Shown piece by piece: positions 705 to 12,220 of a stretch of 64,000 nucleotides of DNA. Positions within the stretch are counted from its first letter, which is position 1. Each line of letters starts with the position of its first letter. This DNA is from Myxococcota bacterium. Its GTDB lineage: Bacteria > Myxococcota_A > UBA796 > UBA2385. The stretch spans positions 128,001 through 192,000 of the forward strand of contig JBIJDH010000014.1 in NCBI GenBank assembly GCA_044344255.1, written 5' to 3'. The notes beneath the pieces were generated by a model that was given only the letters and a program-made list of their open reading frames with translations, did no database searches and was not told where the DNA came from. A program made the position numbers and the translations under genes.

Positions 705-1376
705 TCAATCGTCGATGATGGGGTCAGCGTCGAGGAGGATCCACTGGCCGCTGTTGCCCTGCGCGAGGAAGCGGCTCGTGCCCCAGTCTGCGGCCCACCA
801 CCAGTCGGCGGCGAAGAGCGGGCCGGAGTTCGGGTCCCCGTCGCCGTCGTCGACCTTGATGTGCACACACTCCCAGACGTCCTCATCGGTGTCGGTCACC
901 CAGAGGTTGGGGCAGTCCTCCTGGCCCACGTAGGTGGTGGAGAAGGTGCTGCCGCCCGTCTCGGTCTCGATGACGTCGTCCACCGTCATGGTGGCCTCGG
1001 CCACGATCACCGGGGGATCGTAGGTGGTGGTGGTGCCGGTGAGCTGGTCGGTCATGCTGTGGACGAGCACGCCGTCGGAGCTGTCGCTCGACCAGACGAT
1101 GCTGGTGAGGAGCTGCACCGAGGGCTTGCTGAGCGCATAGTCGAGGGTGACGAGCTCGCGGTCCCCGTCCTTCTGGGTGACGGGGTTCTTGTCCACCGTC
1201 ATCTGCTTGCCTTCGGCGTCCCCGTCGAGGGCGTACTCCCAGTGGGGCTCGCCGTAGAGGGGGAAGTAGTCCGACAGCTTCTGACCTTCGTAGGTGTAGC
1301 CGCCGCCCTTGCAGGCCGAGCCGAGCAGGAGGGCCGCCAGGGCAAGAGCGGGGAGAGTGCCTAGGTGGGTGCGCAT
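705..1376 (-). CDS. Hypothetical lipoprotein (223 aa)
   Basis: Lipobox LLLGSAC, GGAGA RBS at 1381-1385, acidic beta-rich mature region and strong GC3 bias. Confidence 0.75.
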   Translation of the reverse strand: MRTHLGTLPALALAALLLGSACKGGGYTYEGQKLSDYFPLYGEPHWEYALDGDAEGKQMTVDKNPVTQKDGDRELVTLDYALSKPSVQLLTSIVWSSDSSDGVLVHSMTDQLTGTTTTYDPPVIVAEATMTVDDVIETETGGSTFSTTYVGQEDCPNLWVTDTDEDVWECVHIKVDDGDGDPNSGPLFAADWWWAADWGTSRFLAQGNSGQWILLDADPIIDD

Positions 1377-10300: not shown

Positions 10301-12220
10301 GAGGTCGAGGGCGCCGGCCACACAGGCCGCGGCGATCTCTCCCGTGCTGTGACCGAGCACCGCGGACGGGCGGAGGCCCTTGCTCTGCCAGAGCGCGGCG
10401 GTGGCGATGTCGAGCGCGATGATGCACGGCAGGCTGAGCGCGATCTGCCCGAGCGCCGAACGACCGGCGCCGCCCACGAGCTCATCCACCACCGACCGGC
10501 CGAGGAGGCGGCGGACGTGGAGGTCGCAGGCCTCGATCACGCGCCGGAACACGGGCTCGGTGGCGAACAGCGCCCGCCCCATCCCGGCCCACTGGGCGCC
10601 CTGGCCGGGGAAGAGGAGGGCGACGCCGCCGGTCGTCCGGGGTCCCCCCGCCGGCGCCGCGGTGGCCCGGGCGACCCCCTCCACGATGACGTGGCCGTTC
10701 GTGCCGCCGAGGCCGAAGGCGCTCACCCCGGCGAGGAGGGGCCGCTCCGGGCTCGGGAAGGGCCGGGCCGCGGTGGGGACCTCGAGCTGCAGACCGTCGA
10801 GGTCGATGGCCGGGTTTGCGCGGTTGAAGTGCAGGTTCGGCGGGACGGACCGGTGGTGGAGGGAGAGCACCGCCTTCATCAACCCCACCATCCCAGCGGC
10901 CCCCTCGAGGTGGCCCACGTTGGTCTTGGCCGAGCCGACCAGCAGCGGCGCCGCGCGATCGCCACCGTAGGCCGCGCCGAGGGCCCGGGCCTCGATGGGG
11001 TCGCCGAGGGGGGTGCCGGTGCCGTGGGCCTCGACGAGCTGGACCTCCGCGCCCGAGACCCCCGCCGCCGCGCAGGCCGCGCGGATGAGGGCCGCCTGGG
11101 CGTCCGGGTTCGGCGAGGTCAAGGAGGCGCTGGGGCCGTCGTTGTTGATCGCGCTCCCGCGCAGCAGGCCGTGGATCCGGTCGCCGTCGCGGAGGGCGTC
11201 CGAGAGCCGCTTGAGCACCACCACGCCGCCGCCCTCACCCCGCACGTACCCATCGGCCCCCACGTCGAAGGTGCGGCAGCGGCCCGTCAGGGAGAGGGCG
11301 CCGAAGCGCGCCACGCTCACCGCGCTCTCCGCGAGCAGGTTGAGGTTGACGGCGGCCACGAGCGCGAGGCGGCCCTCCCCGCGGCGGAGGCCCTCGCTCG
11401 CGAGGTGGAGGGCCACGAGGGCGGAGGAGCAGGCGGCGTCGACGGTGAGGCTCGGGCCGTGCAGCCCGTAGAGGTAGGAGATCCGATTGGCGATGATGCT
11501 GTGGTGCCAGCCGGTGACCGCGTACTGGTCCACCCGCTCGACGCCCGCACGGTCGACGAGCATGGCGTAGTCCGACCAGATCGCCGCGGCGTAGACGGCG
11601 GTGCGGCTCCCCTGGAGCGCGCCCGCAGGCAGGCCGGCGTCCTCCAGCGCCTCCGCGCAGAGCTCGAGCGCGAGGCGCTGCTGGGGGTCCATCGCGCTCG
11701 CCTCCCGGGGAGAGAGGCCGAAGGCGTAGGGGTCGAAAGCATCGACGCCCTCGATCCACCCGCCCCACTGAACCCGCGCCGCCTCCGCCTCCGAGCGGGC
11801 CAGCCGGCGCCAGTCGGCGGGCCAGCGGTCGGCCGGGACGGGGGTGATCGCGTCGACGCCGCCGTGGAGGAGCGCCCAGAAGGCGTCGGTGTCGGCGGCG
11901 CCGGGGAAGCGACAGGCCATGCCGATGATGGCGATGGGCTCATCGTCCTGGCCCACGTCCCCCTCCGAGGCCCGCTCCGCCGCGATGACGGGGCCGCCCA
12001 CGAGGTGCCGCACGAGGCGGGTGATCGAGCCGTGCTCGAAGAGGTCCACCGGAGAGACGCTCCGCCCGAGGGCCTCGCCGAGCCGCGACGCGAGTCGGGT
12101 GAGCCCGAGCGAGGAGAGCCCCATCGACACGAAGCCGGCCTGGGGGTCGATGCGCGCGGTCGGGAGCAGCTCCTCTCGGAGCGCCTCGGTCAGCCAGGTG
12201 GTGAGCGTGCGCGCGTCCAT
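1361..12220 (-). CDS. Type I modular PKS: ACP-KS-AT-AT-DH-ER-KR-ACP-KS-ACP-thioester reductase (3619 aa)
   Basis: ATG at 12220 with GGGAGA RBS. Motifs: ACP GLSSL; KS1 DAACSS/HGTGT/NVGHLE; AT1 GHSTG; AT2 GHSMG and [57 protein letters not shown]2 [39 protein letters not shown]. Confidence 0.95.
1396..1404 (-). promoter_or_regulatory. Extended -10-like element TGCTACCCT upstream of the 705..1376 lipoprotein gene, inside the PKS 3' end
   Basis: The minus strand reads TGCTACCCT-gccgcgactt-GGAGA-cgcg-ATG, a TGnTAnnnT motif followed by an RBS. Confidence 0.45.

What the first reader, a model, noticed from the sequence alone, without database searches (positions are those of the whole stretch)
1361..12220. 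Stand-alone PKS combining a tandem-AT loading module, an AT-less second module and reductive release
Seen: one polypeptide with ACP-KS-AT-AT-DH-ER-KR-ACP-KS-ACP-R, all catalytic motifs intact, and no other PKS/NRPS, PPTase, transporter or regulator in the window. Established: ACP-KS-AT-AT is the myxobacterial mixed loading/extension module (SorA, MxaF, StiA type), normally the first gene of a long multi-gene assembly line, and terminal R domains release aldehydes or alcohols. Inference: a complete miniature assembly line in one gene making a small methyl-branched alcohol or aldehyde (lipid, volatile or signal), possibly iteratively. I do not recognise this architecture from a characterised cluster.
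Basis: partly seen in the sequence, partly recalled or inferred. Interest (0 to 1): 0.8.

Follow-up and report, generated by a model that had tools for sequence, protein, structure and literature searches.

The report
Lone polyketide synthase missing one acyltransferase
An uncultured lake myxobacterium carries one 3,619-residue polyketide synthase gene, inserted alone between two housekeeping genes, whose second module has cleanly lost its acyltransferase yet stays conserved, so it likely borrows that activity from elsewhere to make a small methyl-branched keto-alcohol or aldehyde.

Summary
Confirmed: one minus-strand ORF (12220 to 1361, 3,619 aa) with ACP-KS-AT-AT-DH-ER-KR-ACP-KS-ACP-R and intact catalytic motifs. 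It is not a chimera: three more full-length variants at 99% and a 13-kb contig from another study carry it.

It is a lineage-specific ~11-kb insertion between glpK and a lipoprotein gene that sit back to back in 14 of 19 family loci. It reads through into the host promoter for its stop. KS2 descends from Sorangium-type cis-AT modules. The AT core was cut out and both linkers kept; the remainder is predicted to fold like a trans-AT KS. KS2 and R are under purifying selection.

Likely mechanism (0.55): a starter, probably acetyl, one fully reduced methylmalonyl extension, a second unreduced extension with a borrowed AT, then reductive release of a C7-C8 beta-keto alcohol or aldehyde. Rival (0.28): KS2 only relays the chain.

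All parts are known; the combination was in 0 of 381 related proteins. New variant of a known kind; product untested.

The parts
1361..12220 (-). Type I PKS gene, 3,619 aa, ACP-KS-AT-AT-DH-ER-KR-ACP-KS-ACP-R
11996..12208 (-). Loading ACP (ACP0, GLSSL, S36)
10667..11944 (-). KS1, C-H-H intact; tandem-AT starter-accepting clade, best 65% to a Polyangium spumosum PKS
9731..10624 (-). AT1, loading AT: SLP / GHSTG / VCPH motifs, extender Arg replaced by Y650; likely loads a monocarboxyl starter, probably acetyl
   Evidence: Arg rule from PMC5655351 section 2.1
8486..9397 (-). AT2, GHSMG / R1059 / VASH; predicted methylmalonyl-CoA
   Evidence: reading VASH as the myxobacterial form of YASH is recalled
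7451..8308 (-). DH (H1338, D1508); the most diverged catalytic domain, 32-36% to its best relatives
5795..6748 (-). ER with Y1871, predicted (2S)/L methyl
   Evidence: tyrosine rule in PMC5655351 passage, position recalled
5201..5743 (-). KR, B-type (LDD, YAAAN)
4706..4933 (-). ACP1 (S2466)
3266..4549 (-). KS2, C2724/H2859/H2899 intact, rare KSHIGH variant; cis-AT Sorangium-type clade
2846..3265 (-). AT-deletion junction: KS-AT linker joined to post-AT linker; predicted to fold like the flanking subdomain of trans-AT KSs
2606..2833 (-). ACP2 (S3168)
1451..2524 (-). Thioester reductase (R), T3366/Y3398/K3402; closest solved structure is MxaA R
1361..1450 (-). 29-codon read-through tail with atypical codon use; covers the host promoter-like motif and the first codons of the lipoprotein gene; same tail in sister protein P0243
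1396..1405 (-). Host GTGCTACCCT motif upstream of the lipoprotein gene (TGCTAC in 13 of 14 relatives); likely -10-type element; right bound of the insertion
12506..12514 (+). Host CGTGCTAGG motif upstream of glpK (counterpart in 13 of 14 relatives); left bound of the insertion
12286..12292 (-). GCTACCC about 70 nt upstream of the PKS start; possible own promoter element, weak evidence
705..1376 (-). Flanking host gene: predicted lipoprotein of no known family, present in 19 of 21 family genomes; its start overlaps the PKS stop
12535..14007 (+). Flanking host gene: FGGY-family kinase (glycerol kinase glpK by sequence; name inferred)

Best explanation
This is a one-gene, two-module polyketide synthase, inserted alone into a conserved host locus, whose second module has lost its acyltransferase core and likely still elongates once with an extender delivered by a borrowed acyltransferase, so that it would release a small methyl-branched beta-keto alcohol or aldehyde. 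Steps: (1) AT1 loads a monocarboxyl starter, probably acetyl, onto ACP0 (loading role follows from the SorA/MiuA/CmdA type; acetyl inferred, about 55%). (2) KS1 condenses it with methylmalonyl loaded by AT2 onto ACP1, and KR, DH and ER reduce it fully to 2-methylbutanoyl, predicted 2S (inferred from motifs). (3) KS2 accepts this chain and extends it once with no reduction (inferred). ACP2 is most likely loaded by a free-standing malonyl AT of the host, either the AT-PfaD protein of the C17 trans-AT cluster or the FabD-like protein on C42, giving 4-methyl-3-oxohexanoyl; AT2 of the same protein, giving 2,4-dimethyl-3-oxohexanoyl, is the lesser option (about 60:40). (4) R releases the aldehyde or, like MxaA, the primary alcohol (1-hydroxy-4-methylhexan-3-one or its 2-methyl homologue; inferred). 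A PPTase encoded elsewhere primes the three ACPs. Shown: architecture, motifs, deletion boundaries, insertion site, conservation. Not shown: expression, activity, product, role.
For: KS2 keeps C-H-H and is conserved. Against a 93%-identical sister fragment (P0243) KS2 differs at 8 of 427 and R at 7 of 358 positions, versus 23 of 79 in the two free linkers (Fisher P 4e-14 and 3e-13). Against an independent strain contig, module 2 has 7 synonymous and 3 non-synonymous changes, pN/pS 0.16, P 0.007. KS2 nests in a cis-AT clade (support 0.999) whose members mostly follow methylmalonyl-type modules, and one of its two nearest tree neighbours, P0047 KS2, follows a VASH-AT + DH-ER-KR module, matching what module 1 would hand over. 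The deletion keeps both linkers, and the model superposes on whole trans-AT KS chains (TM by target 0.85-0.86). Among 148 look-alike representatives, 27 end in non-reducing KS-AT-ACP-R and 12 in AT-less KS-ACP-R, so reductive release right after an unreduced module recurs. Five unrelated R-terminated proteins have an AT in the upstream module and none in the last, which still carries DH-ER-KR or an aminotransferase. The genome has free-standing ATs, PPTases, methylmalonyl-CoA mutase and carboxyltransferase genes. [quoted passage not shown]
Against: An intact C-H-H does not prove elongation: conglobatin module 3 has intact KS residues and a dead AT, and its authors propose stuttering upstream instead (PMC4504003 passage). 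KS2 has His where 777 of 824 KSs have Asn (KSHIGH, 9 of 824) and sits on a long branch (0.48). ACP2 differs from the sister at 6 of 76 positions, more than ACP1 (0 of 76, P 0.028) or KS2+R (15 of 785, P 0.007), which may mean relaxed constraint or re-tuning. No AT gene came in with the insertion, and nothing shows that the C17 or C42 AT recognises ACP2. The AT1 pocket (VCPH) differs from its clade (VAPH/VGPH/VSPH), so the starter is uncertain. No tailoring or export gene lies beside it. The five one-AT analogues are uncharacterised and their gene neighbourhoods were not seen.
Confidence: 0.55

Rival explanations
1. KS2 does not elongate. It relays the finished chain from ACP1 to the ACP2 that R recognises. 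With one round in module 1 the product is 2-methylbutanal or 2-methylbutanol; if module 1 stutters, it is a longer deoxypropionate alcohol such as 2,4-dimethylhexanol.
For: Needs no borrowed AT, so the gene would be self-sufficient, which fits its arrival alone. Conglobatin precedent: dead AT, intact KS, proposed upstream stuttering. A relay would also keep KS2, ACP2 and R under selection. KS2 has a rare Asn-to-His change near the second catalytic His. Residues 856-2508 score highly against the iterative Pks2 model, though below its cut-off (1816 vs 2400).
Against: Both histidines are kept; the KS0 domains described in PMC5764310 lack the HGTGT His, and several C17 KSs of this genome show such a loss while KS2 does not. 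KS1 groups with starter-accepting tandem-AT KSs (59% mean identity to 36 of them vs 47% to 655 others), which argues against its accepting branched chains again. One round would give a C5 alcohol that isoleucine breakdown supplies anyway (own knowledge). KSHIGH also occurs in five KSs followed by an AT.
Confidence: 0.28
2. The gene is a collapsed piece of a larger Sorangium-type assembly line that makes no selected product through module 2, or that works only with partners not recognised here; it may be on its way out.
For: It has no stop codon of its own and reads 29 codons into host DNA. It has no orthologue among 21 family and 153 order genomes. The DH is only 32-36% identical to its best relatives. 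The same genome holds a broken stand-alone PKS on C51. No cluster genes flank it.
Against: The frame is open over 10.9 kb in four full-length variants and a sister lineage. pN/pS is 0.16-0.27 in module 2 and 0.20 in the part of module 1 examined. Codon use matches the host, 86th percentile of 4,369 long ORFs. Every catalytic motif is intact. It carries both its own loading and release domains.
Confidence: 0.15
3. The architecture is an assembly artefact (chimera or collapsed repeat).
For: The source is a metagenome-type genome in 83 contigs, and PKS genes are prone to mis-assembly.
Against: P0003, P0127 and P0128 carry the whole architecture with 28-31 amino-acid differences. One 13,095-nt contig of run X17, not marked as a possible source, spans window 1-12786 in one piece. 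P0243, at 93%, has the same junction and tail.
Confidence: 0.01

Closest known systems
Myxobacterial mixed loading/extension modules: SorA (soraphen), MiuA (miuraenamide), and the myxothiazol, myxalamid and chondramide starters
   Same: ACP-KS-AT-AT start (PMC10051162 and PMC5655351 passages). KS1 is 64% and AT1 49% identical to Chondromyces crocatus Q0VZ73/CAJ46689, which I recall as CmdA; a search for the accession found no paper.
   Different: Those begin multi-gene lines in clusters. Here the line ends 1,100 residues later in the same protein, module 2 has no AT, and there is no cluster.
Myxalamid assembly line (tandem-AT start, MxaA reductase release)
   Same: The same two ends. R's best solved relative is MxaA R (E 1e-60), with the T/Y/K triad aligned. 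MxaA gives a primary alcohol (PMC5655351 passage).
   Different: Many modules over several genes, and R sits on an NRPS module (recalled). The MxaA arginine in RPGR aligns with V3426 here; I recall that removing it favours hydrocarbon substrates, but the paper was not held.
trans-AT PKS modules (bacillaene KS2, MgsE KS3, MgsF KS4)
   Same: AT-less KS with retained linkers; the predicted fold covers these chains end to end (TM by target 0.85-0.86).
   Different: KS2's sequence is cis-AT: best 61.6% to 655 cis-AT KSs, 52.7% to 117 AT-less KSs, 48.1% to 13 KSs of this genome on C17/C58. No AT gene is linked, and module 1 has its own ATs.
Conglobatin PKS module 3
   Same: A cis-AT line with one module lacking a working AT and with intact KS residues (PMC4504003 passage).
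   Different: There the AT is a point-dead relic and the module has reducing domains. Here the AT core is deleted, and the module is terminal and non-reducing.
Uncharacterised single-gene R-terminated PKSs: P0143; P0005, P0006, P0268; P0262, P0341
   Same: P0143 is ACP-KS-AT-AT-KR-ACP-KS-AT-..-ER-KR-ACP-R in one gene. The other five have an AT in the upstream module and none in the last.
   Different: P0143 keeps the module-2 AT. The others start differently and keep reducing or aminotransferase domains. The KSs of this group that were in the tree (P0262; P0004, P0013, P0253 of the P0005 family) lie outside KS2's clade, so the AT losses look independent.
Mycocerosic acid synthase / Pks2 (iterative methyl-branched lipid synthases)
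   Same: AT2-DH-ER-KR-ACP1 resembles them (Pks2 model 1816 bits over 856-2508).
   Different: Below the 2400 cut-off; they have one module, no tandem AT and no R, and extend long acyl starters (recalled).

Membership tests
Myxobacterial ACP-KS-AT-AT loading/extension module | N-terminal ACP-KS followed by two full ATs | tested here: met
Myxobacterial ACP-KS-AT-AT loading/extension module | First AT lacks the extender Arg (monocarboxyl starter); second AT keeps it | tested here: met
   Y650 vs R1059
Myxobacterial ACP-KS-AT-AT loading/extension module | KS1 and AT1 group with those of other tandem-AT modules | tested here: met
   KS1 sister to P0095 KS1 (support 1.0) inside the tandem-AT clade (0.998); AT1 48-53% to the SLP/GHSTG clade
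Myxobacterial ACP-KS-AT-AT loading/extension module | AT1 loads ACP0 and AT2 loads ACP1; starter identity | not testable with these tools
   needs in vitro loading
Canonical cis-AT modular PKS | Every extension module has its own AT | tested here: not met
   no AT after KS2
Canonical cis-AT modular PKS | KS domains belong to cis-AT clades | tested here: met
trans-AT PKS | Modules lack AT and keep a KS-flanking subdomain | tested here: inconclusive
   true for module 2 only, and by prediction; module 1 has two ATs
trans-AT PKS | KSs fall in trans-AT clades | tested here: not met
   KS2 nests among cis-AT KSs, support 0.999
trans-AT PKS | Free-standing AT gene in the cluster | tested here: not met
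   none in 56 neighbouring ORFs; free ATs only on C17 and C42
Terminal thioester reductase (R) domains, MxaA type | NAD_binding_4 / TIGR01746 after a carrier domain, with TGxxGxxG and T-Y-K | tested here: met
Terminal thioester reductase (R) domains, MxaA type | Four-electron (alcohol) rather than two-electron (aldehyde) release | not testable with these tools
   needs assay
Non-elongating KS0 | Loss of the His in HGTGT | tested here: not met
   H2859 kept; lowers but does not exclude a relay role
Iterative Mas/Pks2-type synthase | Single module scoring above the NF041183 cut-off | tested here: not met
   1816 vs 2400 bits, and two KSs

The most novel reading that the evidence does not exclude
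A natural cis-to-trans-AT transition caught in one gene: the AT core of a Sorangium-type module was excised, and the tethered AT2 of module 1 now loads both ACP1 and ACP2 across the module boundary. That would make the protein a self-contained three-ACP line (start, two methylmalonyl extensions, reductive release) for 1-hydroxy-2,4-dimethylhexan-3-one or its aldehyde, and the smallest natural system for cross-module acyl loading in cis.
Probability: 0.22. Interest if true: 0.72.

Novelty: new variant of a known kind. Interest (0 to 1): 0.5.

Why it matters
How AT-less modules arise from cis-AT ones, and who loads an AT-less module inside a cis-AT line, are open points in PKS evolution and engineering. 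This gene offers both in one 10.9-kb reading frame: a clean natural AT excision with known boundaries, a conserved KS2-ACP2-R behind it, and three mechanisms that predict different small products (C5 or longer reduced alcohol, C7 keto, C8 keto) that one GC-MS run and three point mutants can separate. It would also be a natural compact chassis for branched alcohols, and a first product from an uncultured freshwater Myxococcota lineage. The limits: every part is known, AT-dead or AT-less modules in cis-AT lines have precedent, the gene is confined to one lineage, and the likely product is simple.

Tried and rejected
Orthologues in kin: 40 relatives searched with KS2-ACP2-R gave best 54%, over the KS only. 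With the AT1 region, 3 of 21 family genomes hit at E<=1e-40 (33-36%, AT core only) and 0 of 153 order genomes at E<=1e-60 (11 candidates scored per genome, many genomes incomplete).
Same architecture elsewhere: genome contigs gave 7 distant loci and metagenome contigs 80 of 101, best 53%. None showed it on the forward strand. Both tools may leave out records of this genome's close kin.
Module 2 taken from the genome's own trans-AT cluster: rejected, at most 48% identity and other clades. KS2 as a copy of KS1: rejected, different clades.
Functional link to glycerol kinase: rejected, since glpK has the same neighbour without the PKS in relatives.
Mobile-element traces: no target-site repeat longer than a GC-rich 9-mer shared between the two flanks, only short chance-like repeats within each, and no transposase or integrase among the ORFs scanned. 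The sigma-70 scan found 0 sites and no terminator upstream.
Expression: no RNA holder listed; this is no evidence either way.
Two of 33 variant rows (4057, 4063) were dropped as a KS1 copy laid on KS2; both versions of the count are given. P0048 was dropped from the AT-less list because it has an AT after a long linker.
Literature: 10 searches found no paper with this architecture and none showing an AT loading a neighbouring module's ACP in cis; the library lacks most subscription papers. Three papers were not held (MxaA R structure; AT-less KS evolution; enacyloxin release), so what I recall of them is marked as recalled. No supplements were read. No complex prediction was run.
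Full report
1. The observation. The ORF is on the minus strand, ATG 12220 to TAG 1361, 3,619 aa. Pfam and motif mapping give ACP(5-75)-KS(93-518)-AT(533-830)-AT(942-1245)-DH(1305-1590)-ER(1825-2142)-KR(2160-2340)-ACP(2430-2505)-KS(2558-2985)-ACP(3130-3205)-R(3233-3590), with all catalytic residues present. A scan of 56 ORFs in the window and 19.5 kb beyond its 3' side found housekeeping genes and no PKS, NRPS, PPTase or AT.

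2. It is real. The protein's 90% cluster has 8 members. P0003, P0127 and P0128 are full length with the same domains and 28, 29 and 31 differences. 20 of 24 listed runs, from 17 studies of lake or freshwater metagenomes, hold the stretch; 7 of them may be its source. In run X17, not so marked, one 13,095-nt contig spans window 1-12786 with 82 other letters. A 1,314-aa fragment, P0243, is 93% identical and has the same junction and the same C-terminal tail.

3. Host and genome. The genome is 8.18 Mb in 83 contigs, 95% complete. The nearest named GlyQ relatives are mostly 'Myxococcota bacterium' at 74-79% (a few rows carry other labels), so I read the host as an uncultured myxobacterial lineage. 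Elsewhere it has 3 PPTase matches, a trans-AT-type cluster on C17 with a free AT-PfaD protein (AFH motif), a FabD-like AT on C42, and methylmalonyl-CoA mutase and carboxyltransferase genes.

4. The gene is an insertion. The downstream lipoprotein gene occurs in 19 of 21 family genomes. In 14 of those 19 loci glpK lies directly upstream and divergent. In 1 a different 387-aa gene sits between the two, 2 end at a contig edge, and 2 show no glpK within the 1.5-kb flank. None has a PKS hit. The 14 short intergenic regions carry two back-to-back motifs, TGCTAC on the lipoprotein side (13 of 14) and its counterpart on the glpK side (13 of 14). In the window these two motifs are 11.1 kb apart, at 1396-1405 and 12506-12514. 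Such motifs are enriched 20-39 nt before start codons (12 vs 2.7 expected in 3,338 upstream regions), which fits a -10 element (inference). The PKS has no stop of its own: after R it reads 29 codons of atypical use (adaptation index 0.51 vs 0.73-0.84 in the domains) across the host motif and stops inside the lipoprotein gene's first codons. No orthologue was found in 21 family or 153 order genomes. Codon use of the body is host-like (86th percentile of 4,369 long ORFs), so the gain is old or the donor was similar.

5. Origins of the parts. In a tree of 112 KSs chosen from 824 (top hits, all 13 KSs from C17/C58, priority and random AT-less and cis-AT KSs; FastTree, midpoint root), KS1 sits in the tandem-AT starter clade beside a Polyangium spumosum KS1. 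KS2 sits in a cis-AT clade of Sorangium, Polyangium, Chondromyces and Pyxidicoccus KSs (support 0.999). Its best identities are 61.6% to cis-AT, 52.7% to AT-less and 48.1% to those own-genome KSs. Its nearest neighbours (support 0.83) include P0047 KS2, which follows a VASH-AT, DH-ER-KR module. AT1 belongs to the SLP/GHSTG/CAY/V.PH loading clade and has Tyr for the extender Arg; AT2 has GHSMG/R/VASH. R is closest to MxaA R among solved structures and at most 43% identical to any protein in hand.

6. The deletion. After KS2 come the KS-AT linker (to about residue 3070) and at once the post-AT linker (W..G..VDW...LPT..WQR.RHW, to about 3122), each aligning to the matching parts of cis-AT modules, with the roughly 300-residue AT core gone; ACP2 follows about 10 residues later. 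An AlphaFold model of residues 2556-3583 (37-row alignment, pLDDT 86, pTM 0.67) folds the junction as a compact alpha/beta unit. Foldseek aligns it over about 600 columns with the trans-AT KS chains 4na1-3, 4qyr and 4zdn (TM by target 0.85-0.86), and over about 515 columns with most cis-AT KS-AT didomains (0.52-0.58). The model may lean on those known structures. The likely ancestor is a non-reducing KS-AT-ACP-R end module, a type seen in 27 of 148 representatives; AT-less KS-ACP-R occurs in 12 of 148, and the seven of those in the tree lie in other clades.

7. Selection. Against P0243: ACP1 0 of 76, KS2 8 of 427, junction 17 of 144, ACP2 6 of 76, R 7 of 358, free linkers 23 of 79, tail 5 of 29 (tests). 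Against the X17 contig over 1361-7400, 33 rows were listed. Two were dropped as a KS1 copy laid on KS2: they lie 38-39 nt from a piece end, are absent from P0003, and the main piece has 31 differences. Module 2 then has 7 synonymous and 3 non-synonymous changes (pN/pS 0.16, P 0.007), or 0.27, P 0.025, with the two left in. The module-1 part has 10 and 5 (0.20). So module 2 is maintained, but this does not tell elongation from relay, and ACP2 is less constrained than ACP1.

8. Mechanism. Established logic for ACP-KS-AT-AT (PMC10051162, passages; PMC5655351, passages and the first part of section 2.1) gives starter loading by AT1 and one extension by AT2. Acetyl is inferred from AT1's kinship with C. 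crocatus CAJ46689, which I recall as chondramide CmdA with an acetyl starter; no call confirms the name. Full reduction gives 2-methylbutanoyl. I then favour one unreduced extension by KS2 with a borrowed AT (0.55): both histidines are kept, KS2's clade matches the incoming chain, and five unrelated R-terminated proteins have a last module with no AT but with DH-ER-KR or an aminotransferase. For the lender, a free malonyl AT is somewhat likelier than AT2: an AT-null DEBS module 6 needed the free transacylase (PMC6164871, passages; that module 5 shares its polypeptide is recalled), and P0004, P0013, P0253 and the FAAL-ACP-KS-ACP-R-C-A-PCP-R proteins have no AT at all. Cross-module action in a cis-AT line is shown for an ER (PMC9899208, passages); I found no paper showing it for an AT. 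The relay reading (0.28) has the conglobatin precedent (PMC4504003, passages) and needs no helper. PMC9301873 (passages) calls inactive ATs rare and their outcome poorly understood. PMC5764310, PMC11907408, PMC9113145, PMC8302727 and PMC12979598 were seen as passages only and gave background.

9. Compared with what is known. Module 1 is a member of the myxobacterial tandem-AT type and R of the MxaA type. The protein is neither a canonical cis-AT line (module 2 fails) nor a trans-AT system (KS clade and AT gene fail), though module 2 is built like a trans-AT module. Among 381 non-self proteins from three searches (best 120 of 157, 120 of 1,737 and 150 of 29,317), 36 have tandem ATs, 1 of these ends in R (P0143, with its module-2 AT), and 0 combine tandem ATs with an AT-less module. 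This is a ranked sample, not a census. Ten paper searches found no such architecture (listed under Tried and rejected). The scan's own notes hold nothing on PKSs in this genome and one loosely similar case elsewhere, which I did not test.

10. Verdict. A genuine, conserved, single-gene PKS with a new combination of known parts and a clean natural AT excision, gained by one freshwater lineage. New variant of a known kind; interest 0.5. It would rise to about 0.7 if AT2 proves to load ACP2 in cis (probability about 0.22).

Noticed in passing
G000:C17:113237-181600 (L127-L129, L013): A trans-AT-type PKS cluster in the same genome: two giant genes (open frames of about 7,100 and 6,800 aa, 11 KSs, several lacking catalytic residues), a free AT-PfaD protein, a stand-alone KS-like gene and an adjacent PPTase match.
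   Followed up: partly
G000:C51:5593-10850 (L130:2593-7850): A second stand-alone cis-AT PKS, ACP-KS-AT(HAFH)-KR-ACP-TE, broken inside its KS by deletions and a frame change; decay or mis-assembly not told apart.
   Followed up: partly
G000:C24:56597-66301 (L131): Two adjacent reductase-domain proteins, one with an AMP-binding domain and one with a carrier domain plus long unassigned stretches.
   Followed up: no
L036:210-1373 (G009): A different 387-aa beta-propeller-like gene sits at the same glpK/lipoprotein site in another family member, in the same orientation as the PKS, so the site has taken an insert at least twice.
   Followed up: partly
window 263-1376: A predicted lipoprotein of no Pfam or NCBIfam family, found in 19 of 21 family genomes, with a small downstream partner gene seen in 10 of the 19 loci.
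   Followed up: partly
P0244, P0245, P0246, P0247, P0251: A family of about 3,000-aa FAAL-ACP-KS-ACP-R-C-A-PCP-R proteins with no AT and two reductase domains, one of them internal (P0246 is a fragment; one is named from a Desulfobacteraceae MAG).
   Followed up: no
P0004, P0005, P0006, P0013, P0253: One FAAL-ACP-KS-(AT)-KR-ACP-KS-DH-ER-KR-ACP-R family in which two members keep the module-1 AT and three have no AT, a second possible cis-to-trans series.
   Followed up: partly
P0262, P0341: C-A-PCP-KS-AT-KR-ACP-KS-ACP-aminotransferase-R proteins with one AT for two KSs.
   Followed up: no
window 23998-27142: TolQ/ExbB plus two ExbD genes and an unassigned lipoprotein-like gene; like the myxobacterial gliding-motor set by recall, only Pfam/NCBIfam-level evidence.
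   Followed up: no
window 32117-40173 and L001:5509-7830, 16600-18756: Four large proteins with many putative metal-binding (MopE-type, PF11617) repeats, two with FG-GAP repeats.
   Followed up: no
window 12360-12395: Three imperfect repeats around GCATCGG between glpK and the PKS start, seen by eye; possible regulator site, not picked up.
   Followed up: no
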